Positions 9,529 to 47,489 of a DNA stretch of 64,000 nt are shown here, one piece after another. The notes below the pieces were generated by a model. It was not told the DNA's origin and did not search any database. It saw nothing but the letters and a program-made list of their open reading frames with translations. The translations under genes and the position numbers were made by a program. Source of the DNA: Schmidtea nova (lineage: Eukaryota); NCBI GenBank assembly GCA_044892505.1, contig CM097883.1, forward strand, positions 264,430,001 to 264,494,000. Direction: 5' to 3'. Every line of letters begins with the position of its first letter. Position 1 is the first letter of the stretch.

Positions 9529-9564
<36 letters not shown>

Positions 9565-19370: not shown

Positions 19371-19465
19371 AATATATCTAAACTCATGTAAATATCCCTG
19401 TAAAAATATAAAAGAGAAAATTTGACAAATCATTAAATAAATTTGAATCTATAAATCTATAGAAA

Positions 19466-24184: not shown

Positions 24185-24230
24185 GATCCTGATTGGTCAA
24201 TCCAACCAGACGGATCAGTATAAATACCGA
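24185..24230 (+). promoter_or_regulatory. Candidate LTR core promoter (inverted CCAAT then TATA)
   Basis: CTGATTGGTCAATCCAA...CAGTATAAATA; a similar CTGATTGGT-containing GC island lies in the A LTR at about 5115-5230. No transcript evidence. Confidence 0.4.
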
Positions 24231-25316
24231 TCCAAAAATCACAACTCAACTGTTATCAAAACTTACAATCAAGACTAAACTTTGATTCTAAGAACTATTT
24301 TTTATTACTTAACCGAACGATTTTTCGAGAACCAGATTTACTTCAAATTCGAGGAAACATTCAATAATACATTCAAGTACGGAACGTAATATTTTATTTT
24401 TATTTTTAATGATGTTAATGTACCTATGATTTTTCTTCAATTATAATTTTATATTTCAAATTTACTTTATTTTTAATGCATATAGTTATACTTCCTAGGC
24501 TGCTTACGCGGCGAGGGAGTCCGAGTCGTCGTTGTGGGGCCTCACGGTCTCACATGGCGGTTCAACCTTTTTATTCTGTTAATTTTAATTTTGTGAACAT
24601 AATCCGAGAAACGGACAAAGATACTAATTTATTACTAACGATTTTCGATTTACACTTAGTTATTTGATAAAGATTTTCATAATGAATTATAAAAGTTTTC
24701 GACGATTTTCGAACTAGAATTAAATTATCGCATATTCGGTTGCACAGAGGGCATAGTGTGGGGCACAGTAGGAAAGGCGGAAAGAGCTACCAGAAGGTAT
24801 GCAGCACCAAATGAAAGTCAGGTAGTAGCCTCCCAAGTACTAGGATTTTAGGGTAAAAATTTGAGGTTCCGGAGCATATGCGAGATGATACGAATGCGAG
24901 AAAATGGTATTCCAATCGATCAAATTTCGAATTTCATTACGGGTCAAAGTGCGACTCGATAAGATTTTCTTAGATAATCCAGACGAAAATACGTCATCAC
25001 ATTCCTGTTAAATAATTTACACGAATGCTAAAAATACTCTTAGACCGATCGCCGTACATGGCGCGGAATTCCCTGATTTATAAACCGATCGCTGTATATA
25101 GCGCGGAGATTTTAACTTTTATTCTTCCTGAACGCTTTAACTAGCGTAAGGCCATGTAATTATAAAAACGTAATCCGACCGTGGTATATCGCGGCGAAGG
25201 TAAATAAAATTAATCTTATTTTAAACTAAATTTTGTGATTACACGCGGTATCAATAAATCTTTCAACAAATTTCCTCCGTTAAATCCTATATTTTATATT
25301 CAATAAAGTAATACAG

Positions 25317-25796
25317 ATGTCGACAGCCGAGATTGAGAACCAATTGACTCAAATGCGAAACTTGGAACAATGGAATGCAGAAAATGGAATGGTCTCTCAA
25401 CTCAAAGAGCTACCTACACCGATATTGCGGATCCTCAATGCCCAAATGTATAAGTGGAGACATGGGTTTGGTCGAAAATGCCCGTTTTCAATATGGGTAG
25501 GAGGAAGTGACCAAGTACTTTACCGCGGAGGACCGAACTGGCCAATTACCCAAAGGCCTTACTCGAACAAATTTGGTCGAATGATCGTGGTAATAAAGGA
25601 CGCAGAAGGACGAGCGAGCCGCATAATTTATTGGGGACATATCCCTCGCCGAGAATTGTGTCGATTGGGCCTGCACGAGTTTCTGCCGCGGAAACCATTC
25701 GGCAAGGAATGCCAGAAAGGGCAACCCTCGTTTTCTTGGGCTCGCCTTCGTCAGATGCCGATAAACAACGAGATGCACAGCCTATTTCGGCGATAA
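25317..25796 (+). CDS. LTR-encoded 159-aa basic protein, unknown function
   Basis: Intact, GC-richer than flanks, ATACAG directly before ATG; repeated at 49812-50291. Confidence 0.7.
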   Translation: MSTAEIENQLTQMRNLEQWNAENGMVSQLKELPTPILRILNAQMYKWRHGFGRKCPFSIWVGGSDQVLYRGGPNWPITQRPYSNKFGRMIVVIKDAEGRASRIIYWGHIPRRELCRLGLHEFLPRKPFGKECQKGQPSFSWARLRQMPINNEMHSLFRR

Positions 25797-25986
25797 AAAT
25801 ATTTTGACAAAAATTTGTTTCTGAGTAAAAATATTAATGTTCATCAGTGGTTTTTGTTTTGAGTTTTCTTGTTTTGTATTATTAAACCGGTCATGTTCTT
25901 AACCTAATAATTATGCATTCAGATTTTAATTTTACACATAATCGAACCCTAAAGTGACAAAATAATTATCGTAAATCAATTCTAGA

Positions 25987-26583
25987 ATGAATATCGATGT
26001 GGCACACAGGGAGTTGGAAAAGATGTGGCGAATCCGGAGAACCCAGGACAAGGAATTGGGTCTCCTCAAAGCACAATTAATCAAAGCCGAGGCACAAGTC
26101 ACATATTTACGCAAAAGCTGGTTTGCTCCGGCTAGGATGAAGGAGCAAATCAGTAAAACCGAACGTGCCCAGCAAACTGCAGCAGATTATAAAATGGAAT
26201 GGGAAGCTACAAAAATAGAGCTCCGAAAGTGCCTCCATTCCATAACGGCCTCGTACATTGAGAAGGAACTGCGAGATCAAATCCGTCCTATTACATATCA
26301 AAAATGGACATCGGAAAAGAAAAGCGTCAACTCGATTGGCACGGACATCGCTGATCTCACCGAAAGCCAAAACGAGCCGGTTCCAGCAACAAATCCATCC
26401 ATTTCAATGGTAAATGCGCACCAGAAACGCAAGCGCATCGGGCAGAAAAGGCGACGGCAAAGAAAGCTGTTTGCCCAACGATTACAGAGCCAAGTAGATG
26501 GCCTGCATCAAATGACCGAAGGGGAATTATTAACGGAAATCTTTCCCCCAGCCGGAGTTTTCACTGAACTAATTAAAGATTGA
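25987..26583 (+). CDS. LTR-encoded 198-aa coiled-coil protein with basic cluster
   Basis: Intact; KRKRIGQKRRRQRK NLS-like stretch; repeated at 50482-51078. Confidence 0.7.
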   Translation: MNIDVAHRELEKMWRIRRTQDKELGLLKAQLIKAEAQVTYLRKSWFAPARMKEQISKTERAQQTAADYKMEWEATKIELRKCLHSITASYIEKELRDQIRPITYQKWTSEKKSVNSIGTDIADLTESQNEPVPATNPSISMVNAHQKRKRIGQKRRRQRKLFAQRLQSQVDGLHQMTEGELLTEIFPPAGVFTELIKD

Positions 26584-27058
26584 ATAAATTTTCGTGTTAT
26601 CTTAAAATTGTTATTGTTCATTTAAATTGATTTAGTTAACTTGACAAATAATTAGATAATTGTAGAATAAAAATATAAACTCATCTCACAAAATACCTAA
26701 TAAAGGCAAATAAATAATTAAGCGAGCATTTTGTTAAAACACTTCATGCAGAATAAGCAATGTTAAAGATAAATTTTCTGAAAGATTATTGCGGAATACC
26801 TAAGCGGATGATTAAAGCATAAGTCCTTCTAACGGCAGCAATGAACCCGTAAACATAAATGGGGAGTAGTACTAGCAATAGTGCTCACCTGCCCATCATT
26901 GTTTAACCACCCTGCGCATCACCAACTTGATTATATAGGGAAATAATCAAGGGCGCTCGAGTGTATAATTGCAATTTTATGCATGATCATGGATGAGGGA
27001 TCCCTAGTCATTGTTAGAGCATTTTTCATCTAACCCCTCCATGAACCTAGCATAAATT

Positions 27059-27076
27059 TGGGGGCTCAGCCGGGAT
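27059..27076 (+). other. Primer binding site, tRNA-Pro-like (TGGGGGCTCAGCCGGGAT)
   Basis: 16/18 match to the classic tRNA-Pro PBS TGGGGGCTCGTCCGGGAT; 6 nt downstream of LTR end; identical 18-mer at 53079-53096. Confidence 0.85.
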
Positions 27077-27384: not shown

Positions 27385-27846
27385 ATGGAGGAAAAACTGA
27401 AAGAAATCGAAGAATTTCTCAACACAGAAAGCGAAACATTAGAAACGATTGGCAAGAAAGTAAACCGATTTAGAGAGATTGAATTTCAGGAACCCACAAC
27501 ACAGACTGAGGAGACGGATGAATTAGTAAAGATAACAGAAAGAACAAGTAAAATCGACATAAAGACCCGCTACAAATGGTACAGAGCACGATTAGAAAAT
27601 GCAGAACTAAACATTAGGTGCCGACAAATAGAACAACAATTAACCCCAACATACAATCGTTGGAGGGTGCAAGGGGTAGAAGCAGCGAAAAAATACCGAC
27701 AGTGCTATATATGTGAGGATAGCGAGATACAAAGTATGTTTTTACCTTGCGGACATTTTCGTTTTTGTAAGATATGTGCCAGCAAGTGCGACCTATGTCC
27801 TATGTGCAACCTGATGATAGACGATAAAATTATTGTATATTTTTAA
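27385..27846 (+). CDS. 153-aa protein with C-terminal IAP/MDM2-type RING finger
   Basis: CYIC..SMFLPCGHFRFCKIC..CDLCPMC; counterpart at 55806-56288. Confidence 0.85.
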   Translation: MEEKLKEIEEFLNTESETLETIGKKVNRFREIEFQEPTTQTEETDELVKITERTSKIDIKTRYKWYRARLENAELNIRCRQIEQQLTPTYNRWRVQGVEAAKKYRQCYICEDSEIQSMFLPCGHFRFCKICASKCDLCPMCNLMIDDKIIVYF

Positions 27847-28531: not shown

Positions 28532-28532
28532 T

Positions 28533-29342: not shown

Positions 29343-31120
29343 TTGAGAAAAGGAGCAAAGAGCGTTGCAATAAAGCCAACAGAGAAGAAGAAAGCCGGCA
29401 GAGATAACAACAAAAACCCACAAGGGAATAAGGCAAGGAAGATAATAAGAGATAAAGCGATTATCGAAAACGATAAATTGTCAGTAGTAAGCAACAGCTC
29501 AAGTAACAAAGAAAACCAAGCGGAACCCAGAGAGAGCCAAACAAGTGAAATAGAAGTAGACGAAACTAATAACGATAATATAGAAGAAATAGAAAACGAA
29601 GTAGAAGTAGAAATCAACGAGAGTGATAACGATAGTATAATATCGAATAACGAAGTAATAAAGGAAACAGAAAGCGATCCAAGCTCGAGTGAAACAGAAG
29701 AAGAACATAACAACGAACTAGAAACAAGAGGAAACGAAAGTAAAATAACTCAAGACAGCGGAATTGAAATGAGTGAACCAAGAGAAGAAATAAAGGATAA
29801 ATTTGCAGGAGAACCGTTTAACGGAGATGCGAGTAAATTAGAAATCTTTTTAAAAGAATTTGGCATATTCGTGGAGGTATGCAAATGGAAAGCTGAAACA
29901 ACAGCAAGCAGAATACAGTTATATTTGAAAGATAGTGCATTGGACCTATATTTGGAAGCAAAAATAGTACCAATCCACCTGCAGACTGGCCAGCGATAAA
30001 GGACTTTTTCCAACAAACATTTGGAATAAATAAAGTGCTAAGCGAAGCATTCATAGAATTTTCAATGAGAAAACAAAAGATGAATGAATCTAACGCGGTA
30101 TACGCGAGCGAATTGAAAAAATTAGCAAAATCGGTATTCAAGGATGGGAGCCCAATAAACGAGGAACTAATGGCAGCCATCTTCATAGGAGGATTAAGAA
30201 GACCTGACATAAGAGCGCAAGTTGGATGCCAAGGATGCAAAACCATAGATCAAGCGTTAGAAACAGCTAACCGATTCGAACTGCATATGATAGGAAGTGA
30301 AGGCAGAATTTATTTAGCCATAAACACGGCGCAAACCGAACCAGAAGTAAATCTCAACAATCACATTCCAAATTCGCAACAATTAAATCGACCACCTCCT
30401 CAACGAAGGAACGAAGGAAATAAAGTGCAGAACTTTGGAAACCAAAACAATTACAACCCTCAAGGACAAACAAAACAGTGTAAAACATGTGGAAAGTTGG
30501 GACACTGGCAGCAAGAATGCTATCAAAATTTGAATTGCGGGAAATGCGGAGTTAAAGGACATTCGGAGAGTAGATGTTCAACGATAACCTGTTTTAATTG
30601 CGGACAACCTGGTCACTATTCAAGAAATTGCGGACAAAAAAGTAACCAGCGAGGAAATTGGCAGAACAATGGGAATCGACCAAATTACGGAAATCAAACA
30701 AACATCGGAAACCGACAAGATTATGGAAACCAACAAGTCAATAATAACAATAATCAGAACAAAACTACCACCAAAGAAATACATTTGATGCAAGAAGTCC
30801 AAAGGTTGACGGAACTTATAAATAATACGACGAGAGGAAATCCGCAAACCAATCAACAGCAAATTAGCATGATGAGAAAAATAGAAAGCGAAAACGAACG
30901 GTTGAATCGAGAAAGTCAGGCACGACACGCTCAGGAATGGGCAAGGATACAAAGAGAAGACGAACAAAAACAGCAAGAAAGAGAGCGACAACCTCTAAGA
31001 ATAAACATGCTAAGAGCAACAAAGCAAACAGATAACCACGAGAAGGAAACCACATCAGAAATAAACCCGAATCCAACCAACAACGAAAGTCGAAAAGAAA
31101 TAGTACAAAAAGATGAGTAA
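29343..31120 (+). pseudogene. gag: gag (acidic N-terminus, capsid-like region, three CCHC zinc knuckles), frameshifted near 29975
   Basis: PFNGDASKLEIFL..F capsid-start motif; CKTCGKLGHWQQEC, CGKCGVKGHSESRC, CFNCGQPGHYSRNC at 30479-30631. Confidence 0.88.
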
Positions 31121-31144
31121 GTAGAAAAAGAAGTAGAAAAGGAA

Positions 31145-34100
31145 GTGGAAACTGAGATAAACCAGGAAGAGAGAAGAAAAATTTGGATGATGGTATTCAT
31201 GCCCAACAACCATGTGTTTAGATTTCAATATAACGTAAAAGAAGAAGTGAGAGTATTATTCAACAAAGCAAACCAGATGGTTCCAGGAGTAACGAAACTG
31301 CCCAGAGAAGCGTTCTTACAAATAGGAGATGCACCATCAGTAAAATTGAAATTAACGGATATATGGGAAAACGTGGGAGTAACAGAGACAAAAAGAAATG
31401 TGATGAGAATCAAAGAAATAGAACCAGAAGAAATTCCACCACCAGTGCGGCGCGAAACCCGAATCAGTCGAATATTTAAAGGAAAAATGATACGAAGACG
31501 TTTGAAAGAAATAGACGAGTTGGAGAAGAAAATGAGAAAAGTCGAAGTAATAGAGGACAAGAGTGAACAAACCCCAGAAATTACCAAAACCGAAACAAAA
31601 TCAACGGAGAATATACAAGGGGAAACGAACCAAATAGCACATATTAATATGTTAAGAAATACCACCAGAGAATTTTCCGATGAGGAAGAAGATAGTGATA
31701 TCAGTAGCCTAGCAGGAGACATATTAAACGAACCCGAAGACGAAAACAAAGAGATAAAAGTAATAAAGACCTCAGAACCTACACAGATAAAAGTGGATGA
31801 AATCCAGAAATTACTAGATAACTCGCTAGAGGTAATATATAACGAAGAGTTCATGGACAAGAAACAATATCGGAAATTCATGAAAGCATTATTACAAATG
31901 AACTATAAAGAATGGTTACAAGACCGGGAAGTAGACATGTTAAATCGATACGTAGGGAAATTAATAGAGAACCACTCCTCAATTACACCATCTCAATAAT
32001 AATAAATACATCTACACCAAGAATCTGGATCAAAACTCCATTTACGGACGATATCTACAGATGGGTAGAGGATAGACTAGGGAGCTCACATAAAAACAAA
32101 TTCATCTATTCGCAGAATAGACTCGTAAAGAAAAGAACGCACCTAGTAGAAACAGGTATATGGCCAGGAGAAGTAACCCTGTTATCAATATGCGATGAAA
32201 AGGAAGAAGAGAACCTACAAGAAGTTGCAAAGGAAGCAAACACGTGTTTCGAAAGGAGAATAAAACCACGGTTAGAATACGAGAAAGGACGAATCTTACG
32301 AAAGAATCTAAATTCCCTGATAGAACAAATCATACCACAAGTCAAAAAACATAGAAAAGAGTTAATGAGAAGCGAATATGAGAAACTGAAACGATGTATT
32401 GAGTGCATACGTGACACAAGTCACACGAGATGGTCACAGATCTCACACGACAAATTAATCGCAAAAATGGGGAAAACAATGTTCAGACAAGGGAAAATAA
32501 CAGATCTAAAAATTTCAGTAGAATTGCCTAATGAAGACACCAAAGAAATTGAAGTGGTAGCGGATTGCACCATTAAAGAATTAATAAATGTCATCAACGA
32601 GACACTAGTGCAAAGAGAACCAGAAGACGAATGGGAAGACGACATAATCATAAAATATAACGAACATGTATTATGGGATCACGATGAGAGACGACTATAT
32701 AAAATCGGTATATGGGATAATCACCAAACCATCCACGTTATCAGAATGGACGATACACCCAGAGAAACTGCTAAAGATGAGAAAAGAGAACGGGAACGAC
32801 AGAAAGAAGTTGTACACAAACTACAACAAATAGTAGATATCTATCGAAATTGGCGAATTTGGCCAGAGTGGGAAAGCGTATTAGAAGAACTCAATCTCAA
32901 CAGACGATTACGAACACCCGTAGAAAAACAATGGAACGAGCAAGGAAAATGTTGGGAACCAAAAGAAGGGGAATATGAAGAAGAATATGAAAGAGGAATT
33001 GAAGATGACTGCGAACCAGAGATAGGAAGAGTTTGCATGGTAACAAGGAAAGCTACGCCAATAGACCTAGATGGACCAGAAACCGCGGCTATATGGTTAG
33101 AAAGGGAAAAGCAAAAAACGGAAGAATTTGTCGAAATATTGAAAACTAATGCGCACGGTAAGAGAAAATTAATAAAGGGTCTCGCAGATTTTTTCGTGGT
33201 AAATGGAGAGGATATAACATGCTTGCGTAAAGTAGCAAAAGCAATAGCGGAATATAAAAGAGTTAACGAGTGGTGCCCGGAACAACTAAACCACGTCATT
33301 AGGAAATGGAGAAATCAAGAATTCTCGCAAGAAATTCCACAGAAAGTACATTTAAGAATAATATATCCAAACAAGGATAAGGAAGAGTTTTGGGTAGGAA
33401 TAGCAGAAAAAATTCGAGATATTAAAAAGAAATTGAGATACGAACCACCATTCCATTTACAACACCAAGGACGATCATTAGATAACAGTTTGGAAATTGG
33501 AATAACGCCAGCACAACTAGATCTCATGAATACCTTGACAGTAGAAGCAATAGCGGGTCAACCATTGAAAAGTAAAGAAGAAAACCATAAACCACACGGA
33601 AGTATAAGTACGCCGAGCCCGATGAAATCAGTACTAACGCCAGGGACAAGTTCAAGACGATCTGAGACAACACCCAGAGGGAATAGAGAAATGACTCCAC
33701 CACAACCATACGACGTGGACGAAATTTTAACGGATAGCGACGATATGATAGAAGAGCTAACCGAATTAACAAAGGAAAAAGACGACAACATTTTCGAAAG
33801 AATACAAGAACTACCTACGACAATACAAGTAACCAACACCGGAGAAACAGAAGTCGAAGAAGAGATAATAATAGAAGAAATAAACGATTTGACAGAAGAC
33901 GAAACGAGAGGAGCGAATGTTGAAAATGTACAATTAACACAAGAAATGGAAAGATGGTTAGAAGAAAGAGCTAACGAACCAAGAGATGTCACGGAAGAAA
34001 CAGGACGGGCAACAAGGTTTGTGGAAACAGGTACAGGAATGGATAAACGACCTCGAGGTAGACCCAAGACAGATCCAGCAACTGTAGTTATAAGAAATAA

Positions 34101-34698
34101 AGATGAAAAGAGACAAGATCAATGGGAATTATGCTTAAGGAAACTAAATAAAATTGCGGAGATAAAAGAAAAAGAGACAACACCAATATGTCAAGGGGAG
34201 GAATGGATATCGAAAACAATACTGGAAATATTGGCAATAATTGATCCGGAATTGAGAAAATACTGGCGGATAACTGAGATAAGCGAAAAGGCGAAGTCAC
34301 TACACAGCGCAATCGCACCCATCTTACCGGAATTCATAAAAGAAAAGACGAAATCAAATCATTTAGACTGGCAAGGAACCACTACGTTAATAAAGAAACT
34401 GACAGAAGGAGCGGAAACAGATAACAAATACGTAATAGCCATTGCATATACGATCTACAATCTGTTGACACTAAGTAGAGGTCGACCAAAACCCACTGCA
34501 TTAGAGAGACATATAAAAAATACCGCAAAGATTATAGCTAGAGAAATAGAACCTTACGTCATTAACAAAGGAGGATGGGAAACATTTATAAAAACTAACC
34601 AGAAGAAAACGCAAGCGAAGAATATGAAAAAGAAATTCGAAAAAATATTGGAAGAGTTAGAAAAAGAACAAGCAGGAACAGGAAACGCGAAGTCATCA
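31145..34698 (+). pseudogene. Gag-Env intervening polyprotein segment: several Ubl-like domains, helical domain, Bcl-2-like domain
   Basis: In frame with gag across TAA 31118; frameshift near 31970; segment 33110-33560 is homologous to family A ORF1; YVINKGGWETF motif. Confidence 0.6.
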
Positions 34699-36720
34699 AT
34701 GAATTTGAGTTCTATAATAATGATGATGTTGATATGGATGATTAGCACCGATAGCGCAACAGCATTCGAAGTGTTTGATTGCGACCAAATGAAGTTAGGA
34801 GAAAAGTATTCATTGAGAGGTACGGAGCAATGCAAAGATGCAACTCCAGTAGAGTTGCAAAAGATTAAAAAGGAACAATGGTACCACGTGTATCAAGAAG
34901 CAGAACTCATAAAGACAATGGTGAATGAATGTAAGGTGAAGAAGACGAGATTCGCATTCTACTGCGGGAGAGGACATTATTCAGCATTTGTCATGCCAGG
35001 AACGGAAAGAGAACCAATCGTGTTACAAGGAGAAGACTGCGAAGCATTGTTTAAACATGGAGAAGTAACAACAAGAGACAAAATCAAGATAAAAGGAAAG
35101 CCAGGAATGATGCTGCAACAGACCTACTATGTAGCAGGACGGATTACGGGAGGAGAAGGATATTGTCAAGGAGAAACCTACCCGATATTCGGAGTACTTG
35201 CAACCAACTTAGTGGTGATGGATACGTATATAGTCGAACTAAAAAGCTACGAGGTATTCTTCGAACCAACAACGGGAGAAATGAAAACGTTATCCATGTG
35301 TAAAATCGACAGGAGCATGTGTCAAACGGGAATGTCAACATTAGTATACAAACCAAAGGTGAACGAATGTCAATTACAACTGCTACAAGGAGCAAAGTTA
35401 GACGAAATTCAAGGAAAAACGTTCCAGGAAGAAGACGATGACGACAAAGCTAGAGCAAAGCATCTCAAGGAAGCTTTGGAGAATAAAAGACAATTGAAAC
35501 CAGATCATAGAGAAAAACGGATAGAGATGAGAGCCACACCAACAGTGTTGATAACCACAAATCAGGATGTGGGAATGAGATTCATAAAAGGGAAAGCAAC
35601 CCTTTAGTGTAGTACAACGGTATACGAAACGAATTATCCAGGAATATATGTGTCAAAACAAGAAGTGCCGAATGCGAAACCCAAAATCGACACAATGGAT
35701 ATCAAACTACACTTGTATGTGAATAATAAAATGGATTTCCTATTCCATAGAGGACAAGCCTCATTACAAAAAGTGTACTACGATCTGATAAACAATGATT
35801 GTATACTGAATCGAGAAATATTAAAGACAAAGTTGGCCGTAGCGAATACGAATCCAGATAGCGCGATGCCATTATTACCACTGAAAGAAGGACATTTCGG
35901 AAGAGTGGTTGGAGAAGCAATGTATGTATACATTTGTGAAAAGACACACGCGTCGCTAGCAGCAACAACGCAGTTGAAACCTGGAACCTGTACAAATGAG
36001 TTAGAAATCGATTACAAAGGAAAAGTACGATACGTTCAACCGGTGACGAGAATCATCAATCCACCAGGGTTTGAACCAAATCCATTCAACTGTAGTAATG
36101 CGTACGGACCGCTTTATCAGAAACCAGATGGTAAATGGGTTATGTTCCCAGGAAGAGCCGAAGTGATAGCACCAAGAGAATTCGAGCTAATGCAGTTGTC
36201 AAAAGATAGGCAATTCAGCGACGTAGATGTCTCAAACAACGGAATATATAGTCCAAAGGATTTAGAAGCAGCAAGGCAGAATATATTATTCCCGGCGAGA
36301 AGAGAAGCATTACTGTCAAATATCGTAACGATAACGGGAGGAACGGATTATCGAGAAGGACCGAATTATGAACTGTTGTTGTCACCAGCACATTTCAAGA
36401 AAGCCACAGAAAATATGATGAAAGCAATGTGGGGAAGATTCCTGATATTTGGACAAATGATGGCTGGAATACTGGGGGTTATATTAATAATACAAATCGT
36501 CAGAGTGATAATAACGCAAATGTTAGCGTGTTTCGATATCTACAAGAGAGAAAAGAAAGTGAATTGGAAAATGGTAGTAGGGTTTTTACCATTCCTTGCG
36601 AAAACGATGGTGTTGCACGGACACTCAAAGGACATACATCGAATAAAGAGATTGTTGAAGATACTCGCAAAAATGAAGGGAACAGATGAAGAAGTAGGAC
36701 GAAAATTTAAAAAGATAATG
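34699..36720 (+). pseudogene. env: Envelope glycoprotein, chuvirus/gB-like class III fusion type, one premature TAG at 35605
   Basis: Signal peptide then VFDC..YSL..C..C..FYCGRGHYS; later C..L..NP..G....GEAMYVYIC, CTNELEI..PVTRII, GIYSPKDL..ILFP; TM at about 36440-36515. Confidence 0.75.
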
Positions 36721-37059
36721 AATGACGAACAAGCAAGACAACAGCTCAAGAGAGAAAGAAAAGGTTTATGGGAGAGGATGAAAGGATATAAAACCCAAAA
36801 TGATTCGAGTGACGACGACGATGACGATGACGACAATAAGGGAGGACAAGTGTATAAGAACCAAGCACCCCAATACATTGAAAAGAATCCAGTCGACGCA
36901 TGGAAATGTTACGCACCTCCACCAACCATGTATCAAGAACCACTACAAGGAGGAAGAACGACCACGATGCAAATGATGCCAATGACAAATGTATACCCCA
37001 TGATACCGGAAGATTATAAAATGAGAAGATGTAGAAGTGTAGATCCACAAGGAGACACA

Positions 37060-40000
37060 CATACAATCGCCGTAATGTCATCAAATACAGGTCCAGTACT
37101 AACCACGACAATAGAAATTAACGGAAGAGAAATCGAAGCAATGATCGACACTGGAGCAAATATTTCCGCCATCGACATCAAATGGATACCACAAGAACAA
37201 AGACTGGAAATAGAAAGGACAAACGTCCATGTAATTGCATGTAGCAAAGAAATCGTAGAAGTAGCAGGGAGATGGTGGGTAAAAATACGCCACTTAAATA
37301 CAGAAATCGATACGTACGTAGCAGTCATACCAGCATTAAGCGTACCTTGCATTATTGGAACGGATTTGATGCCAGCTTTATTTAAAGAAATTGTAATCGA
37401 TCTCGGAACAATGAGACTAAAAGATCGTACCGGACAAATATGCGCAATAGAAGCCAAAGTGACAAGTTCAAAGCAAATGATAATACCCGCAAGAAAGGAA
37501 AAAATATGTTATGTAAAAATAGATCCGACAATCCAAGGGGATATGATTTTCGAACCAAGTAAAAGATTCGAGAAAAGAAAAGCGTTGCCAATGGCAAAAG
37601 GATTAGTCAACATAAATGATAATGGAGAAATTCCAATAAAAGTAGTAAATTTCGACGAAGAAGATAAGATAATCTACGAAAACGAAAGATTAGGTAAATT
37701 AACCCCAATGATGGATATCGAACTACCAATAGAAGGAGCAGAGAAAGATAAAGAACCAACCTGGAATATTGATAGTGAATTATTAAATGAGGACCAAAAG
37801 AAACAGTTAGAAAAACTGCTGATGGAGTATAAGGATATATTTGCAGCATCCGATTTAGATCTAGGAACCTGTGATGTCACGTTACATACGATACCATTAA
37901 CAGACGAAACACCAATTGCATTAAGGCCGTACAAACTAGCGGAAGCACAGAAAGCAGTAGCTGAAGCAGAAGTGAAGAAAATGTTGGATGCAGAAGTAAT
38001 CGAACCAAGTTGTTCACCCTGGCAATTTCCAGTGGTAATGGTAAAGAAGAAAGACGGAACACAGAGATTTTGCATCGACTATCGAAGATTGAATACGGTA
38101 ACAAAACGAAACACTTACCCATTACCGGACATCAACGAAATGCTATTAACATTACAAGAGGCAGCATATTTTACATCGCTAGATCTGAAAAGCGGATATT
38201 GGCAAATAAAAATGAAGGAAGAAGACAAAGAGAAAACTGCCTTTACCATCGGTAGAGACCTATATCAATTTAGAAAGATGCCATTTGGACTAACAAACGC
38301 ACCAGCATCATTTCAGAGATGCATGAATTTCGTCACCCATGGAATAAAGCAGTGTATGGTCTACATAGACGATTTATTAATTTATTCTAGCACGTTTGAA
38401 CAACACATACAGGATATTCGAGATGTATTCGTTAGACTGAGACAATGGAAGTTAAAACTCAAGCCATCCAAATGTGATTGGGCTAAAGAGAAAGTAACAT
38501 TTTTAGGACATATAGTGTCAGCAAAAGGAAAAGAACCGGATCCTAGAAATATCGACAAAGTAAAAGAATGCCCAGTACCAAAAACAATAACCCAAATACA
38601 AGAATTTCTCGGACTATGTGGATACTATAGAAAGTTTATAAAAGATTACGCCGGAATCGCTAAGCCTATACAGGAGCTGGTAAAGAAAGATGTATCATTT
38701 ATATGGGGAGACGAACAGCAGACAGCTTTCGAGACATTAAGAGATAAACTGATAACCGCACCCATATTGGTACACCCAGACTCCAAGAAGCCATTCCTAC
38801 TTGCAACAGACGCAAGCGGATATGCAGCAGGAGCAGTATTAGGACAATACGATGATGAAGGAAAGGAACGGGTAATCGGATATTATAGCCGGACGTTCAA
38901 AAAGCATGAGAAAAATTACTCAGTAACGGAACGAGAAGCATTAGCAATTATATTAGCGATTAAACATTTTAAATACCTATTATGGGGACACATCATCTGC
39001 ATAACAACAGATCACCAACCGCTTGTATGGCTAGGACAGCACAAAGAAACATCCAGTAGATTAATGTGATGGGCAATGCAGTTACAGGAGTACTCACCGG
39101 ACATAAAATTTAAATCAGGACGAGCGAATGCGAATGCAGACTGTATGTCAAGACTGACATTTCCGGAATTAACCGATCCTGATGTACAACGAATCTGTGT
39201 ATTAATAGCAGAAGATTTAGATTTTAGTGAGTTAAAGAAAGATCAACAGGAAGACAAAGAATTAGGACAGATCATAGAGTTCCTAACATCTCGAAACATG
39301 GAGGTATTCAAGGATAATAAGGAACTAAAGGAACATATAGGAAAATATCAACATCGCTATATATTAAACAAAGGATGGTTGTTGATACAAGACGGTGAAA
39401 AGAGATTGATGTGTTTACCGGAAAACAGAAGGAAAGAGATAATGATCCAGTACCATGATGGGAAATTAGGAGGTCATATGTCCGAGAAAAAGACAAAAAA
39501 TCGTATGAGACAAAAATATTATTGGCGAACAATGGAAGAAGATATTAAAGAATGGATTAAAAATTGTCTAACTTGCGCAACCAGAAAGGATAGTGGGAAG
39601 AAATGGAAGAACCCGCTACAACCAATGCCGATACCAGCAGAGCCAATGACAACTATAGCAATGGACGTAATAGGACCATTACCAGAAAGTCTAAACGGAA
39701 ATATCTATATATTGGTGATAACAGATTATCTGACAAAATTCCCGGAAGCATTTGCCATGCAAGACCAAAAAGCAAAAACCGTAGCAAAAATTTTAGTGGA
39801 AGAAATATGTTGCAGATACGGAACTCCAAAACAAATACTCACAGACCAAGGAACTAACTTTATGAGTGAGTTATTAGACGAGGTGACAAACTATTTTAGA
39901 ATAGCAAAATTGAGAACTTCACCATATCACCCGCAAACGAATGGACAAACGGAGCGATTCAATGGTACATTGATTAGAATGCTATCCAATTACGTCAGCA

Positions 40001-42720
40001 GACACCAAACTGACTGGGACGAGTACATAAAATTATGTTTAATGGCATACCGAATGTCGATACATGCAGCAACAAAACTAAGCCTGTTTCAACTTATGTA
40101 TGGAAGAGAATGCAACATGCCCATAGATTTGGAGTATCAACCACCATTATCGCAATATATGGAAGACGACGACTACGTAACCAAATTCAAAGAAAGAATG
40201 CAGGAAATATGGAAGACGGCAGAACTCAACATTAAATTTTATCAGGAAAGTTATAAGGATTTACACGACCAAAAGAAAAATGTAAAAGCAAACGATCTAA
40301 AACCAGGAGACTGGGTGATAATAGAAACTCCCGAAATAATACCAGGAACTGTTAAGAAACTCCAAAGACCTGGAAGAGGACCTTATGAAATTATATACAA
40401 AAAAGACAATAATGTCAAAGTTAAGCTAGTAAATCGACCTTTAGTACGACCCATATATGTAAACACCTGCAGATGTAAGAAAGTACCTAAAACGATAACT
40501 ACAACACCAGAGAATCGAATAATAACCAGATCACAAACAGCCAGGATAAATATGCTCAGAGCAAACACAAGCAAAGACGACAAAGCGGAAATAAGGCAAA
40601 AGGAAATCAGAAATAAAGAAATCATATTGAAGGCGAGAGAAATAATGGGAAGATGGCATGTTAGAGACAAAGTAGGCATATCAAGGGACATTAGACATAT
40701 AATTAGCCGTTACGCACAAGGATTACTAACCGAACCAATTATTTCTGAATTATTGGGAAAAATCCCTGAAATACTCTTATTGAAAGATGTAGGAGGACAA
40801 CCAGCCTTACACAATGCGATACAGTGTAAAAACAGTGAAAGAGTAAAAGAATTCTTAAAAATCGCAAAAGAAACAAACCAAAACTTGGACGTGGGGAATC
40901 GTGAACAAGAAACTCCATTAATGACAGCCGCAATCCACCAAGCAGATAAAGAAATGGTAGATCTGTTGATAAAAGCCCGTTTCAGTTGGACAGAACGAGA
41001 TAGAGAAGACAAAACAGTGCTAAATCACGTAATATGGAGTTCTCACCAACCAATGCTGAAATACATAATAGCTAACTCCACGTGGGAAATAGACGAATTA
41101 ATAAAAGGAGACATTATCAAAGAAGCAATAAAAATTGGTAAATGCAACACGATCCGTAAGTTAATCAAATGGAAACGACCAGAAGATGATACATGGGTCT
41201 TAGACATAAACGAAGTATACAGCGAAGGACAAAACGCGCTGTTAAGATATCTTTTGAAATTTACTTGCGATCAAAAGACATTACTAACCTTATTAGACAG
41301 AGGAAACATAAACATCACAAAGAATGAAGAAGAATACAAATTCGATAAAGAGAAGGAGGCCTTATTCAACAAGATTAGGAAATGGTGTGCGAAACCACTT
41401 GATAAACTAATAACATACAAAGACATAAACAATTTTATCGAGAAATACCAGACGATAGTAAGTGAGTATGAGGAATTAGTAAAAATCTTAAACCACCCCG
41501 AAAATTGCAAACAGGTTTTGAAAAAAAAGGAAAGAGAAAGTAACAAGAAACTCACACCACTCTTCAAAGCAGAAGCATCATACCAAGCTAGACTAGATGC
41601 GATACAAGAAAAAGCAAAGGAATTGCTACCAGAATTCGAAAATTGTAAACACGCATTAGAAATATTAGGCGCAATCGTGGAAAAGGTACACGCATACGCA
41701 AAAGGAACTTACAACGGAAACGACATAGTAATAATAAAAAAGGAGATGCCAGTAGCATTCTTACTACCAAAGGACGGAATAATGCCCATACATAGAGCTT
41801 TACGAAATGGCAAAGATAGAAAAGTAATGGAAATTGCAAGAGTAATGCTAAACTGCGGAAGCAACATGAATATGATAGACGAGAAAGGAGATACACTCAT
41901 GGTATTTGCAGCAAGGGCTAAAACAAAAACAAAGGTGTTAGAAGAACTATACAAAGCAGGTGCAGGACTTACAGGAAAGACAGACAAAGACAACTCCATT
42001 TTGGATGTAGCATTATTAACACATAATTGGGAAATGGTCAATTTCATTAAAACAATTTCAAACCAGGAAGAAATAGAATACCTAGCTAAAACAGTTAAGA
42101 AACCCAGTGTACTAACAATGATGAACAACGTCGAACTTACAGAATCAATACTTACGTTGGTAAATCCGAATACAAACGAACCAGCATTCAGGATTAACGA
42201 GTTTACAGAACATAACCAAAACTGGTGTATAAGAAGTGCCCTAATAACATATAAATGGCCAGAGATATTGAAGATGTTTATGGAAAGAAAGGATCTAAGA
42301 GTCACAAACAACCCGAGAGAAGGAAAATACACAGGCAAATGGAAAGAATTAATGAGGACATACATCAACAATTGGATCAAGGCCAAAAAGGAAATCGTGG
42401 AATATAAATCCACTAACAAAGTAATACCGGAGCATGTAGAAACACAAGAATTTGAGGCAAGTAATCTAACGACATTAGCATATGCAAAATTGATAGAAGA
42501 AATCAATGTCGAGGACGACATTTTCAACGAGCCAGGAGAAGATGACAATACAGATAGTGACGACGATAACAACTCAGAAAATTCGAACGATCACGAACCA
42601 CCCGATAAAGAGGAAAACGAGAGAAAAGACAAGAAACGAGACAAGGAAGAAAAGAAAAGTGAAGACGAAAAACAAAGAAATGAAGAGAGGAGAACAAGGA
42701 AAAAACGACCAAGGAGATAA
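37060..42720 (+). pseudogene. pol: pol: protease, dUTPase-like remnant, RT, RNase H, integrase, two ankyrin-repeat blocks; premature TGA at 39067
   Basis: DTG 37147; FCIDYRRLN, YIDD 38362; LATDASG, ELEA-equivalent EREAL, TDHQPL; integrase HD..GGH..CLTC, MDVIG, TDQG, TERFN; TPLMTAA ankyrin. Confidence 0.95.
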
Positions 42721-44845
42721 AATTGACACCCAAAGAACAGGTTATAAATCAACCATAAAACCATTCTTCAAACCAGAGTTACTATTATTAACAGTGATTT
42801 TAACGTTAATTAACCCAAGTCAAGGAATGACATGTGAAGAACGGGCAATAATACAAATAAAAAACGCAAAAGGAATCGAACGAGTATGTTGGTCGAAAAA
42901 GGACAAAATCACGGAACAAAATAGTCCGATGGATTGCAGAATCTCAGAACACGAGCAAGAGATCATAGAGATCGATGACTTAGATCTAAATACCTGGTAC
43001 AGAATATGCACCGTTAGAAAACAAAAGCATCCAAGATCACACAACACAATCGCATGTGCAAACTACCAAACACCTAAAGCAACCATGACAGTACAACAGT
43101 CACCCGAAGGAGATTACATCGTCGGAAAATGTGGAAGAACAGAGACACAGGGAACCGAAAACAAAAAACCCCACGCAATAGATAAGCAAACAACACCAAC
43201 TATACGAATTACAATAGAGAGGCCCGAAGCAAGAGTTGCCACAAACGAAACCGAAAGAGTGTCTTACCAAATGGAAGTATTATGTTTAGCACTCATACTA
43301 ATAATAATAAAACGACTAGAGGAAGGGATGGAAATTGAAACTATGACAATAACGGAAGTAGAAGATACACAGAATACTAACATAAAATGTTGGGCAAGGA
43401 ATAACGAGGAAGTCGGCGTAAACGAAATAAGGAAAAGTCGAAAACCAACAACAAATAAAGTAATGAGAGTATCCGAAGTAAAAGCAGACAAGATGTACAA
43501 ACTATGCCTACTAGAAAAAGAGATAAACAAGAAAGGTACCACAAAATGTAAAACATTCCAACCTGGAGAAGTAATAAAGTTCAGAAGGAGAACGAGGAAG
43601 AGAAATAAACAAATCAAGCAGAAAGTAAACATAACATTAGAAATATAAGAGATAGAACCAAATGTGAAAGGAGTATGCTGGAGGAAGTACGAAAAAGAAA
43701 CAAATAAAAGAATGACACCACAATGTCGAACAAGCACAGGAGCAACGACGGTACAAATAAAAGGTTTAGAAAGTAAACAAACTTACGAAATATGTCTGGT
43801 AAAGAAAAGTGATCAGATAACGATAAACGATCTAGAGTGCGGGATATATACAACTTCATCCGGAACAGGAACAAAAACGCTAACACGGAAAAATAAAAGA
43901 AGACAACGAAACAGAGGAAAACCGAAGTACACCACTACCCTTAAAAACGACAAACAACCAACAAACCAAGAAGTTAAGATAAAACCCGAGAAGAAGACAT
44001 CAGCAACTCTGACATTATGGAAAATAGAGAATAAAACATTAGAAATATGTTGGATAATAGTCCAGAAACATATAAGAAGACAATCAAGAGAGTGCAGAAA
44101 AACAAATAAAGAAATCAAGATCGAAAAACTACAATTTAATAGCGAATACGAAGTATGTGCAATAGAAAAAACGGACGCACTCGGAAACCAACAAGAAAGA
44201 TGCGTAACCTACTATACACCAGCAAACGCGACATCAAAAGGAGTAGCAAGGAAACTCGAATTCAAGGAACTAAGCCAAACGAATAAACAAATGGACGCAG
44301 AAAAAATAATAACCGACCCTCAAGCAAAATGGACACCTGAAGAAGTTATCAAAGAAGTCAAAAGAAAGCAGGAGGAACGAGAACAACTAAGGAGAAAACT
44401 AAAAGGACAATATGGAATAATGTTCAACAAAAGCGAACCTATACCAACAGACGAGAATAAACAAATTAAAGAATTAATTGGCTTAGGAATATTAACAGCG
44501 ACCATACCAGTAATAATCGCATTATCAGCTATATGGATACGCAAGATAAATCCCAGAAAATCAACAACCCAATGGCTAAATATAGATAATACAAGCCATG
44601 GAGTAGAAATACTAGAAGAAAAAACACTAGAAGAACCAAATGAGAAAGAAGCAAAAAGCGGAAAACTACGAATAAACAACGAAGACAAGGAAATAAAAGA
44701 GATTAAAGGCGAAGAGAAAAAATATGAAAGTCGAACCAGAAGCCTACCGCAGAGTTCAAAATGGTTGGGTCTAACAATAATATTGAGTTGGGTAATAAAT
44801 AGATTAAACAACGAAGCGGAACCAGATTCAACGAATGAGCCATAG
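42680..44845 (+). pseudogene. Membrane protein with signal peptide, about four FN3-like repeats and TM; in-frame TAA at 43646
   Basis: LLLLTVILTLINPSQG; repeats such as DDLDLNTWYRICTV, KGLESKQTYEICLV, EKLQFNSEYEVCAI; TM LIGLGILTATIPVIIALSAIWI. Confidence 0.6.
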
Positions 44846-44937
44846 ATAAATAAAGCGAAAAACTGTAAATATGTAAAAATAAAAACAAAAAAAATCAAAA
44901 ATAAATGACAGGTCAAATGTATATATTATTGTAGGAA

Positions 44938-46314
44938 ATGGACAGAGAAGAACGAATAATCGAAATTTTGAGACTAGAAAACAGAAAATGGAGCAAAAGA
45001 CTCACATGCGGAAAATGTAACAATTTACTACGAGAACCCAGACAAACGATATGTGGATGTAGAATATGTACAAAATGTATACAAGAATTAGATGCAACAG
45101 GAATAACAACATGCCCAGAATGTAAAGAAGGAAGAATAGTGTTGGACGAAACCAGAACGGACAAAGCAACCCAAAGAGAAATTATGAGCACCACAACGGA
45201 GTGCGTAAATACACCTTGTACATGGCAAGGACAAATAAGTAATCTAGAAAACCATATGGAAAAGTGCGAGGAGAAAAGAACCGAATGCGAGAAGTGCCAA
45301 CAGACAATAATTCTAAAGAAGAGAGAACAACACAAGGACGAATGTAAAGAAGAAGAAATCGCATGCGAGTATTGTGAAACTCGAGAAACAAGGAGAAAAA
45401 TCGAAGACGAACACTTGAATATAACAGAGGAGAAAGTATGCGGACAATATGTAAGCAAATGTCCAAACAAGTGTGAAATAACAGAAGAAATAAAGTTACA
45501 TGAACATTGGAAAGTGTGTACCGAAAGACCAAGAGAATGTCCATATAACAAACAGGGATGCAAGGAGAAGCGGACGCGGCAAACAATGAAACAGCATCTG
45601 GAAGAAGCAGCACTAATGCACGTGGAAATGACAAACGAAACGACAAAAGAAACGGAACAGACAATTCGGAAATTAGAACAAGAAGTAGAATCACATAAAA
45701 TAATGATGAGTTTACTACTGGAAACGAGAGAGCAGTTCGAACTAACCCGCGAAAGAATGGAAGAAAAAATAATAGCCATAGAAGAGTTAGGAAAAGGAAT
45801 GAAAATACAATATAATCAATTAATACGAGAAATTGACGAAAGAAGGGACTTACCAATCGCACCTTACCTATGGAAAATAACAGAATTTAGAGACAAACTA
45901 GCAGAAGCCAGAAATATGACGAAAACAGCAGTAATAAGCCCACCATTTTATTTATGGAAAAATGGGGTTAAAATAAGATTGAAGGTATACCCAAATGGAG
46001 ACGGAAGAGGACAAGGAACACACGTGTCAATATTTTTCTCGTTATGTAAAGGAGAATACGATGACCTAATAGAATGGCCCATGAAAGTAGGGGTCATTAT
46101 AAGAATCAAAAGTATAGGAAAATCGGTGGAAAAATTCTTTGAGACAGACAAACATACGAGTACGAGTGAAAAACCGACAACAGAATGCGGACTAGCAGCA
46201 GGAGAACCAATGTTTATAAGGAAAGAAAACCTATGGGAACGACTATACGAGGACACTTTATACATAGAGATGGAGAAACATGAGAAAACGGATAGAAAAG
46301 GATGGTTGGCGTAA
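44938..46314 (+). CDS. TRAF-family protein (RING, zinc fingers, coiled coil, MATH), intronless
   Basis: RING CGKC..EPRQTICGCRICTKC..CPEC; MATH VYPNGDGRGQGTHVSIFF..KGEYDDLIEWP. Confidence 0.92.
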   Translation: MDREERIIEILRLENRKWSKRLTCGKCNNLLREPRQTICGCRICTKCIQELDATGITTCPECKEGRIVLDETRTDKATQREIMSTTTECVNTPCTWQGQISNLENHMEKCEEKRTECEKCQQTIILKKREQHKDECKEEEIACEYCETRETRRKIEDEHLNITEEKVCGQYVSKCPNKCEITEEIKLHEHWKVCTERPRECPYNKQGCKEKRTRQTMKQHLEEAALMHVEMTNETTKETEQTIRKLEQEVESHKIMMSLLLETREQFELTRERMEEKIIAIEELGKGMKIQYNQLIREIDERRDLPIAPYLWKITEFRDKLAEARNMTKTAVISPPFYLWKNGVKIRLKVYPNGDGRGQGTHVSIFFSLCKGEYDDLIEWPMKVGVIIRIKSIGKSVEKFFETDKHTSTSEKPTTECGLAAGEPMFIRKENLWERLYEDTLYIEMEKHEKTDRKGWLA

Positions 46315-46427
46315 TGAAGGAAGTAACCATGTAAATAAAATGTATAGAAACAATATGAAATAACAAATAATCAAAAACAATAAAAATAAAAACTGATTAA
46401 ATATTCTTTTTATCTGTAATTATAGAA

Positions 46428-47489
46428 ATGGGAAATATAGAGGTAACCTTACAAGAAGTAACCGTACATCAAGACGAAGTTATCAGCAATCATATGGAAC
46501 GGATTGGATTATGGATCCATGCCTATTATCGAAAACAGGAGGAATTGGAAAGACAAACCGAAGTATTAAGAGAAGCCGAGAAAACGAATCAAAGAAGTCG
46601 AGAGAAAATAGAAGAAGTCTACAAATTGCTGAGGCAACAAAATGAATACTACAAAGAAATGATGAAAGAGCGACGAGAGGATAGGGATAGACAACAGATA
46701 AAAACAGACCATAAGATTCAGTCAATCACAGAACAAGCAAGATATTGGAAAAAAAAGGCAAAAGATTCGTACAAGGAAGCAAGGGAGATAATAGAACGAA
46801 CAGCGTACAGCGATGATTGGAAACTGTTTATAGAGATCGATGAATTAAAAGAGGAATTAGGGCAAAAGATCAGTCAAGAAGCGTCAAATAAAGTATGGAG
46901 TAAGAAAAGACAACAATTCATCAGGGAACAAGCCAAGAAAATTAAAGAATTAACTTATCAAGTACAAAGAATGGGAGAAGATTTAGCAAATCAAGAACAA
47001 TTAAAAGGTATGCTGACCGGAATGGGGAATCACAAGGAAGAAAACATGAAAAGAGACATAAATGGATATCAAGGAGTGATTACCCAGAAGAAAATAGAAT
47101 TAAAAAGAACTAAAGAAAGACTGGAAGAAACGAGGCAGAGTTATGAAGAGAACATAACCAATTTGACAAAAGAAAACGAAGAACTGAGGAAAAGGCTGAC
47201 AGAAAAACCAATACCAGCAAAGGAAACAAGTATTACAGCAGCAGTAACGGAAATGATGGAGAAAGAAGAGAAAGAGAAAAGATTAATGGAATTAGAAAGA
47301 CAAATTGAAACCCTAACGGAGCAGGCAAACTATCTGGAATACTTGTTAGACGAAGAGATCCAAATATCCCACACATACCGAGAAGAAGTCGAAATGTGGA
47401 GGAGCACGGTAATATGGATGCCACTCCCCATAAATCAGGTGGAACCTCAAGACGAAGGTTTTCACGAACCCAACGAAACCCTTGTATAA
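46428..47489 (+). CDS. 353-aa coiled-coil protein ending DEGFHE..ETLV
   Basis: Intact; shares QARYWKK / YLLDEEI.IS / DEGF.E..ET.V with 16957-18504. Confidence 0.85.
   Translation: MGNIEVTLQEVTVHQDEVISNHMERIGLWIHAYYRKQEELERQTEVLREAEKTNQRSREKIEEVYKLLRQQNEYYKEMMKERREDRDRQQIKTDHKIQSITEQARYWKKKAKDSYKEAREIIERTAYSDDWKLFIEIDELKEELGQKISQEASNKVWSKKRQQFIREQAKKIKELTYQVQRMGEDLANQEQLKGMLTGMGNHKEENMKRDINGYQGVITQKKIELKRTKERLEETRQSYEENITNLTKENEELRKRLTEKPIPAKETSITAAVTEMMEKEEKEKRLMELERQIETLTEQANYLEYLLDEEIQISHTYREEVEMWRSTVIWMPLPINQVEPQDEGFHEPNETLV

What the first reader, a model, noticed from the sequence alone, without database searches (positions are those of the whole stretch)
34699..37155. env lies between gag and pol, in frame with both, and is chuvirus/gB-like
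Seen: glycoprotein with signal peptide and TM is in the same frame as the upstream segment and runs without a stop into the protease DTG. Known: retroviruses and errantiviruses place env after pol as a separate spliced ORF; chuvirus-type class III glycoproteins have been captured by BEL/Pao elements. Inference: an independent capture by a Gypsy lineage with polyprotein topology crossing the ER membrane, which forces equal Gag:Env:Pol synthesis.
Basis: partly seen in the sequence, partly recalled or inferred. Interest (0 to 1): 0.85.

Follow-up and report, generated by a model that had tools for sequence, protein, structure and literature searches.

The report
Burro giant retrotransposon with mid-polyprotein envelope
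This is a broken copy of a giant jumping gene of a kind already described in planarian flatworms, whose sister copies encode a virus-like envelope protein in the middle of one huge protein; that layout has been in print since 2019, but two families in this genome have likely exchanged the envelope module, which hints that it is still used.

Summary
The stretch lies in a 27.7-kb Gypsy-type LTR retrotransposon (23842-51547). A PF24664 (Monjiviricetes fusion) glycoprotein sits between a BCL2-like domain and the protease. This copy is broken (4 stops, 3 frameshifts, a 1.86-kb deletion), so its gag is not in frame with env; but no other copy shares the stops, and 9 of 39 sister copies hold one stop-free frame of 5,644-5,736 codons from gag through env and pol. 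The domain order is that of planarian Burro elements, for which env in frame between gag and pol was reported in 2019; gB-type GAG-ENV-POL elements are also known from flatworms, nematodes and bryozoans. An independent new capture is therefore not supported. Added here: env is under purifying selection as strong as pol (pN/pS 0.04); a second family that is near saturation at silent sites elsewhere (0.49-0.67) shares this env almost unchanged (0.14), with borders at the predicted signal cut and just after the membrane anchor; and env's predicted internal signal sits where a Bcl-2 tail anchor would. The class III fold (model failed) and equal synthesis (no RNA data) were not shown.

The parts
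23842..27052 (+). 5' LTR, 3,211 bp, TG...CA; 4-bp target-site duplication ATTA outside the element
   Evidence: 13 mismatches and no gaps against the 3' LTR
27059..27076 (+). primer-binding site complementary to the 3' end of tRNA-Pro(TGG)
   Evidence: matching genomic tRNAs called tRNA-Pro by ARAGORN (4 of 5 genes in L246)
27385..27846 (+). small upstream accessory ORF ending in a C3HC4 RING finger
   Evidence: PF13920 E 7.8e-11
29770..30631 (+). gag: capsid-like region and three CCHC zinc knuckles (30482-30631); frameshifted near 29940-29960 in this copy
   Evidence: zf-CCHC E 1.1e-10; Retrotrans_gag E 0.0064, below cut-off
31169..33561 (+). region with up to three ubiquitin-like domains; a stop at 31118 and a frameshift near 31950-31970 separate gag from it in this copy
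   Evidence: Ubiquitin_4 E 0.056 for 32503-32760 only (weak); the other two by eye
34153..34600 (+). BCL2-like domain ending in a BH2-like GGW motif
   Evidence: alone E 1.3 to Bcl-xL; three-family profile E 0.0023 to Bcl-xL; the same region of two sister families hits PF00452 at E 3.4e-4 and 2.1e-3, below cut-off; single-sequence fold failed
34699..34764 (+). predicted internal signal sequence of env, in the position of a Bcl-2 tail anchor
   Evidence: hydrophobic core and small or aliphatic -3/-1 residues in all 35 family-A, 19 family-B and 28 family-C/D segments found; pN/pS 0.06 on few sites; no signal-peptide predictor was run
34765..36438 (+). env ectodomain, 558 codons, chuvirus-G/gB-like, 14 Cys, one N-glycosylation sequon, one furin-like REKR; stop at 35605-35607 private to this copy
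   Evidence: PF24664; stop in 0 of 37 other covering copies; pN/pS 0.04
36439..36620 (+). predicted transmembrane anchor (36439-36534) and a following amphipathic helix (about 36562-36620)
   Evidence: strongest hydrophobic segment of the frame in all 9 long open copies; hydrophobic moment up to 1.4; pN/pS 0.01
34780..36660 (+). env cassette shared almost unchanged with a second family (B) that is 70-80% identical elsewhere
36621..37062 (+). predicted cytosolic tail linking env to the protease, no stop
37105..37722 (+). aspartic protease (DTG at 37147-37155) followed by a dUTPase-like domain
   Evidence: RVP E 1.6e-7; dUTPase E 0.16, weak
38041..39933 (+). reverse transcriptase, RNase H (stop at 39067 private to this copy), integrase, in Gypsy order
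   Evidence: RVT_1, RT_RNaseH_2, Integrase_H2C2, rve
40639..44845 (+). ankyrin repeats, then a second membrane module (signal-like stretch, FN3-like repeats, transmembrane segment); frameshift near 42660-42690, stop at 43646, about 1.86 kb absent at about 44785 relative to sister copies
   Evidence: Ank_2 E 1.2e-14, fn3 E 0.008 weak
44935..46314 (+). accessory ORF: complete TRAF-like protein (RING, zf-TRAF, coiled coil, MATH)
   Evidence: MATH_2 E 9e-22, zf-TRAF E 7e-8; 459-codon frame in most copies
46401..48134 (+). two further accessory ORFs (coiled-coil; signal plus transmembrane)
   Evidence: no Pfam match at cut-off
48337..51547 (+). 3' LTR

Best explanation
This is a decayed copy of a Burro-type giant Gypsy retrotransposon whose intact sister copies encode Gag, a BCL2-like domain, a chuvirus-G/gB-like Env and Pol in one frame of about 5,650 codons, likely processed like a flavivirus polyprotein. 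Shown: the single frame, the domain order, strong purifying selection on env, and near-identity of env between two otherwise diverged families. Inferred: the ribosome makes Gag, ubiquitin-like and BCL2-like domains in the cytosol; the hydrophobic stretch after the BCL2-like domain would act as an internal signal that sends the ectodomain into the ER lumen; signal peptidase would cut at 34764/34765 and leave that stretch as the membrane anchor of the BCL2-like protein; the env anchor would stop transfer and return protease, RT, RNase H, integrase and ankyrin to the cytosol, where the element's protease would release them at a recurrent motif. Env would then coat budding particles and fuse them with other cells. 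The env cassette was likely moved between families A and B by template switching in co-packaged RNAs. Host likely a dugesiid planarian (inferred from the Burro architecture and the env likeness).
For: Single frame: (9 of 39 copies open for 5,644-5,736 codons); about 30 of 130 env matches lie in frames over 5,600 codons (counted by eye). Same order in three other families of the genome: B (5,088-5,089 codons in 2 of 3 full-length copies read) and C/D (3,393-3,401 codons in 7 of 8 read; env 36-37% identical), each with BH2-like GGW, then signal, ectodomain, anchor, DTG. Selection: shared-variant pN/pS env ectodomain 0.04, anchor 0.01, against protease 0.02, RT 0.00, integrase 0.02 and laxer regions 0.09-0.15. 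Exchange: four-fold-site difference A vs B 0.144 in env (95% CI 0.116-0.172) against 0.56-0.67 in BCL2-like, PR-RT-RH and IN; 30 of 30 B copies picked by protease-region DNA carry the shared env; A|B branch 0.028 in env, 0.28 in RT, 0.50 in BCL2-like. Published architecture matches domain by domain (PMC6431247). S. mediterranea gB-type env rows in the supplement of PMC13524379 are visibly alike (by eye).
Against: The fold is not shown: AlphaFold models failed (pLDDT 30.7 for env, 47.4 for BCL2-like) and no solved structure matched env by sequence. BCL2-like, ubiquitin-like and dUTPase-like calls are below curated cut-offs. The signal of family A is only moderately hydrophobic (19-residue mean 1.58, under the 1.6 threshold), charge asymmetry is weak (7 K+R vs 5 D+E before the signal; 4 vs 6 K+R around the anchor) and the ectodomain has only one sequon. 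The cleavage motif was read off the same sequence it was tested on, and families C/D do not show it. No particle, fusion or expression evidence was obtained.
Confidence: 0.75

Rival explanations
1. The frame is single on the DNA, but spliced or processed RNAs set unequal amounts of Gag, Env and Pol; env could be made from its own RNA starting at the Met at 34699.
For: ATG at 34699 is kept in 34 of 36 covering copies; the single-ORF Gypsy element Cer1 makes a spliced product (PMC10309623 passages); particles usually need far more Gag than Pol (established knowledge).
Against: No pyrimidine-rich acceptor passed my crude filter in 33000-34760 or 36450-37160 (a weak test on an A-rich strand); the frame stays open across both env junctions in four families.
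Confidence: 0.2
2. Env is kept for a role inside the cell (budding into the ER, or tethering protease and Pol to a membrane) and not for spread between cells.
For: Pol hangs on the env tail, so env folding and anchoring could be needed in cis; no fusion or particle data exist here; PMC13524379 discussion says transmission is unknown for most such elements.
Against: The whole 558-codon ectodomain is conserved as strongly as pol and was the unit exchanged between families, more than a tether would need.
Confidence: 0.2
3. One reading: a recent, independent capture of a chuvirus glycoprotein by one Gypsy lineage.
For: PF24664 match; GAG-ENV-POL elements are not one clade in the POL tree (PMC13524379), so the arrangement arose or was reshuffled more than once.
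Against: Families only 47-48% identical in RT carry the same env (37-39% identical) at the same place, so it predates their split; homologous env is published from S. mediterranea elements; the same paper argues for ancient acquisition. No glycoprotein tree with free viruses could be built here.
Confidence: 0.05
4. The likeness of env between families A and B reflects constraint, not exchange.
For: Env is strongly constrained at the protein level, and RT protein is also 94-95% identical between A and B.
Against: Silent four-fold sites differ at 0.14 in env against 0.49-0.67 in every other domain, with sharp borders (fixed differences 13-23 per 100 nt outside, 0-4 inside); within each family env silent sites vary freely (0.07-0.11).
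Confidence: 0.04

Closest known systems
Burro (GYPSM1, Burro1-4) giant Gypsy-like LTR retrotransposons of dugesiid planarians (PMC6431247, section 7)
   Same: About 28 kb with multi-kb LTRs; one giant ORF with Gag and three CCHC, ubiquitin-like, BCL2-like, env in frame between BCL2 and protease, dUTPase-like between PR and RT, RT-RH-IN, ankyrin; TRAF/MATH and RING accessory domains.
   Different: ORF about 5,650 codons (4,873 and 5,140 reported); TRAF is a separate downstream ORF, not inside the ORF or upstream; FN3-like membrane module after ankyrin; no BIR found in this element (BIR-RING lies in the neighbouring element). Which named Burro it corresponds to was not tested.
HSV/gB-type GAG-ENV-POL 'errantiviruses' of Platyhelminthes, Nematoda and Bryozoa, including Smed_errantivirus_1-6 (PMC13524379)
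   Same: Ty3/Gypsy pol, gB-type env upstream of pol, many near-identical copies; env domain I-II rows visibly alike, closest by eye to Smed_errantivirus_5 and _6 (shared PGTERE and GMRFIKG stretches).
   Different: The passages read describe them as ORFs in that order and do not mention an in-frame polyprotein ('polyprotein' and 'in-frame' occur 0 times in the main text); env recombination is described as infrequent and ancient, whereas the exchange seen here is recent.
Anakin BEL/Pao elements with chuvirus glycoprotein in mosquitoes (PMC7642597)
   Same: Same glycoprotein family carried by an LTR retrotransposon.
   Different: BEL/Pao backbone, no BCL2/TRAF/ankyrin cargo described in the passages read; not a Gypsy element.
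Atlas virus of hookworm (PMC9094657)
   Same: Env made within one stop-free polyprotein (2,828 residues).
   Different: Belpaovirus, order Gag-Pol-Env, class II phlebovirus-like Env at the C-terminus, so Pol does not have to follow a membrane crossing.
Flavivirus/hepacivirus polyprotein processing (recalled, no call)
   Same: Works like it, by inference: internal signals and stop-transfer anchors split one polyprotein between lumen and cytosol, and a signal can stay as the anchor of the upstream protein.
   Different: Unrelated RNA viruses; analogy of mechanism only.

Membership tests
Ty3/Gypsy LTR retrotransposon (Metaviridae) | LTR pair with TG...CA, target-site duplication, tRNA primer site | tested here: met
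   3,211-bp LTRs, ATTA duplication; tRNA-Pro
Ty3/Gypsy LTR retrotransposon (Metaviridae) | pol order PR-RT-RH-IN | tested here: met
Ty3/Gypsy LTR retrotransposon (Metaviridae) | RT phylogeny within Gypsy, outside BEL/Pao | not tested
   no reference RT set was available; YIDD motif and domain profile fit Gypsy but BEL/Pao shares the order
Burro | giant size, multi-kb LTRs, high copy number | tested here: met
   27,706 bp here, about 1.86 kb more in sister copies; 154 and 178 exact motif hits (the env count includes family B)
Burro | single ORF of about 5,000 codons from Gag through IN and ankyrin | tested here: met
   9 of 39 copies, 5,644-5,736 codons; not met by this broken copy itself
Burro | env in frame between BCL2-like domain and protease | tested here: met
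   BCL2-like call is below the Pfam cut-off
Burro | ubiquitin-like before BCL2 and dUTPase-like between PR and RT | tested here: inconclusive
   right places but weak scores, E 0.056 and 0.16
Burro | MATH/TRAF, RING, BIR accessory domains | tested here: met
   TRAF and RING ORFs inside the element; BIR only in the flanking element
Burro | sequence or tree placement with named Burro1-4; dugesiid host | not testable with these tools
Class III fusion protein (gB / chuvirus G type) | profile match to Monjiviricetes/chuvirus fusion family over the ectodomain | tested here: met
   PF24664 E 4e-57 for an unbroken sister ectodomain, E 5e-71 and 5e-72 for families C/D
Class III fusion protein (gB / chuvirus G type) | five-domain class III fold, trimer, fusion loops | tested here: inconclusive
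   model pLDDT 30.7 from a 6-sequence alignment; no PDB match by sequence
Class III fusion protein (gB / chuvirus G type) | membrane fusion activity | not testable with these tools
   no assay

The most novel reading that the evidence does not exclude
Burro families are living enveloped retroviruses with a flavivirus-like polyprotein: the tail anchor of a captured Bcl-2 was turned into the signal sequence of Env, so one cut yields both a membrane-bound anti-apoptotic protein and a class III fusogen; and diverged families trade the Env cassette, signal cut to membrane anchor, as an exchangeable entry module.
Probability: 0.35. Interest if true: 0.7.

Novelty: new member of a known kind. Interest (0 to 1): 0.38.

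Why it matters
The headline layout is published, so the finding itself adds a family member. What would matter: whether env-bearing Gypsy elements outside insects actually use Env is open (PMC13524379 discussion). Pol-level purifying selection on env in about 150-180 young copies, and a recent, cleanly bounded exchange of env between two families, are population-genetic signs that they do. The placement of env's signal at the Bcl-2 tail suggests a simple route by which an env can enter the middle of a polyprotein without trapping Pol in the ER, and makes the topology directly testable in native tissue.

Tried and rejected
Homologue searches for env in the 5.8-billion-protein set found nothing at E 0.001 in three tries (word-based, weak evidence); none in metagenome contigs, viral contigs or phages. 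No result was obtained from the representative library or the ESM Atlas, so no deep alignment or glycoprotein tree could be made and the link to free chuviruses is untested. Both AlphaFold jobs gave unusable models, so no fold search was run. No RNA holder listed: not evidence either way. Contigs of four runs of one study showed no interpretable splice joint; their 2-3-fold higher summed depth over env was only a lead, explained by family B. Rejected: a programmed stop or frameshift around env or between gag and env; the TAG as a readthrough codon (0 of 37 other copies); constraint as the cause of A/B env identity; ascertainment of B copies by the env motif (22 of 30 lack the exact motif yet carry the cassette); insertion of an already long-dead copy (38 private changes, pN/pS 0.62, fit decay after insertion given 13 LTR mismatches). 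Direction of the exchange is unresolved: a midpoint-rooted tree nests A inside B for the 5' half of env only, with no outgroup. Papers not held: Lee et al. 2026 Dev Cell on Burro1, Sacco et al. 2022, the 2018 planarian genome paper (id recalled); they may already report parts of what I call added. Earlier scan findings: none.
Full report
1. Observation. The window holds a 27,706-bp element at 23842-51547 bounded by 3,211-bp LTRs with 13 mismatches, TG...CA ends and an ATTA duplication. A primer site at 27059 matches tRNA-Pro(TGG). The finding's stretch is one frame with one stop at 35605. Both halves match PF24664 Monjiviricetes_fusion (E 1e-18, 5.7e-49), and the second half continues through protease, RT and RNase H. 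In this copy gag is not in frame with env: a stop at 31118 and a frameshift near 31950-31970 intervene.

2. The family. A DNA search of the own genome with the env-protease junction scored 40 of 819 candidates; I read 20 kb around all 39 non-self hits. The window's four stops are found in 0 of 35-37 covering copies and its three frameshifts differ from 33-36 copies; stops in other copies fall at 37 scattered codons, one or two copies each. From env anchor to protease 35 of 39 copies are clean; from BCL2-like to env 34 of 36 covering copies. Thirteen of 39 are open from gag to RNase H and 9 of 39 for 5,644-5,736 codons. Exact 24-mers give 154 (RT) and 178 (env) hits, lower bounds.

3. Anatomy. 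Gag with three CCHC, ubiquitin-like domains (weak), a BCL2-like domain, signal-like stretch, 558-codon ectodomain, anchor, amphipathic helix, 176-residue tail, protease, dUTPase-like (weak), RT, RNase H, integrase, ankyrin, FN3-like membrane module; separate RING, TRAF and two unnamed ORFs. The BCL2-like call is weak alone (E 1.3) and better as a three-family profile (E 0.0023 to the BH2 end of Bcl-xL; PF00452 E 3.4e-4 and 2.1e-3 in families C/D). Two more distant families (C/D, found with PF24664) keep the same order in frames of 3,393-3,401 codons (7 of 8 read).

4. Selection. Among 40 sequences, variants shared by three or more copies give pN/pS 0.04 for the ectodomain (94 silent, 13 replacing), 0.01 for anchor plus helix, 0.06 for the signal, against 0.02 protease, 0.00 RT, 0.02 integrase and 0.09-0.15 for ankyrin, a spacer and the first ubiquitin-like region. 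Staying open is required of env in any case because pol lies downstream; this degree of amino-acid conservation is not.

5. Env exchange (added here). Twenty env-motif hits on C1 without an RT motif at the expected distance were read; all 20 belong to a second family, B, about 77% identical overall. Identity to the window is 69-82% outside and 93-97% inside about 34780-36660. Four-fold sites differ at 0.144 (95% CI 0.116-0.172, 222 sites) in env against 0.666, 0.557 and 0.630 in BCL2-like, PR-RT-RH and IN (15 A by 20 B copies). Thirty of 30 B copies picked independently by protease-region DNA carry the cassette (94-96%; 3 only in part), 22 without the exact motif. The A|B branch is 0.028 in both env halves, 0.28 in RT, 0.50 in BCL2-like. 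The borders fall just after the predicted signal cut and just after the anchor and helix. Template switching is the inferred route; direction is unresolved. Env swapping is well known in vertebrate retroviruses (PMC10536682, abstract only).

6. Mechanism. Shown: single frame, order, selection, exchange. Inferred from hydropathy: an internal signal after the BCL2-like domain, with small or aliphatic residues at -3/-1 in all 35 A, 19 B and 28 C/D segments found, then one strong anchor before the protease. This places Gag and BCL2-like in the cytosol, the ectodomain in the lumen and Pol back in the cytosol. The signal begins some 30-45 residues after the BH2-like GGW, where Bcl-2 proteins carry their tail anchor (recalled). 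A recurrent motif like RINML occurs 9 times, several at domain borders (before and after protease, before and after integrase), against a shuffle mean of 1.5 and maximum 6 in 2,000; the pattern was drawn from the same sequence, B keeps 5 matches and C/D do not show it, so it is a candidate protease site only. Against: moderate hydrophobicity of the A signal, weak charge bias, one sequon, failed models. Equal synthesis follows only if the unspliced RNA is the sole message; no RNA data were available.

7. Comparison with what is known. [quoted passage not shown] PMC13524379 (abstract, passages, section 5 part 1, section 14, section 9 part 1, supplement rows) reports gB-type GAG-ENV-POL Gypsy elements in flatworms, nematodes and bryozoans, six from S. 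mediterranea; their env rows resemble this one by eye (not computed). Passages were read of PMC7642597 (Anakin), PMC9094657 (Atlas), PMC10309623 (Cer1), PMC8532177 and PMC13465017 (Burro1 expression and IAP role). Nine literature searches (listings only) showed no paper on env exchange between Burro families or on the BCL2 tail serving as env signal, but three relevant papers were not held and their supplements were not seen.

8. Verdict. Real feature, broken copy, new member of a known kind. The selection signal, the bounded env exchange and the BCL2-anchor/signal reading are the additions. Interest 0.38.

Noticed in passing
window 1-23841 and 51548-61835: The element sits inside a tandem array of a likely non-autonomous Burro-like derivative (unit about 17.7 kb; 1-4575 repeats at 17679-22249, 8228-13398 at 56619-61835) that keeps a ubiquitin-like piece, protease, ankyrin, TRAF and a BIR-RING IAP ORF (15725-16822) but shows no match to gag, env, RT or integrase of family A; it has the same tRNA-Pro primer site at 53079.
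   Followed up: partly
L241+L195+L242; also L203, L227, L234: A family-B derivative lacks RT, RNase H and integrase but keeps zinc knuckles, BCL2-like, env, protease and the last membrane module in one open frame of 3,154 codons; 3 of 30 B loci lack RT sequence.
   Followed up: partly
L169-L184 (families C and D): Two shorter env-bearing families with four CCHC knuckles and 3,393-3,401-codon frames; they end in a second signal-ectodomain-anchor module directly after integrase, without ankyrin.
   Followed up: partly
window 25284-25796 and 25975-26583 (repeated at 49779-50291 and 50470-51078): Two ORFs of 170 and 202 codons lie inside the LTR itself; family B has ORFs of similar size in its LTRs; no Pfam match at cut-off.
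   Followed up: no
window 28321-28763: Two short tandem arrays (29-31-nt and 32-nt units) in the untranslated leader before gag; similar 21-47-nt arrays in the flanking element at 8886-9287 and 57251-57623.
   Followed up: no
G000:C1:459608206-459648096 (L246-L250): A long tandem array of tRNA-Pro(TGG) genes with a 308-nt period; 1,191 matches to the tRNA pattern genome-wide at one mismatch.
   Followed up: no
G000:C1:590851296-590955953: Four family-A copies in tandem about 33 kb apart.
   Followed up: no
family A, 29970-42400: Pairwise distances between copies correlate poorly from region to region (Spearman 0.06-0.53 among 33 copies), suggesting frequent recombination within the family.
   Followed up: partly
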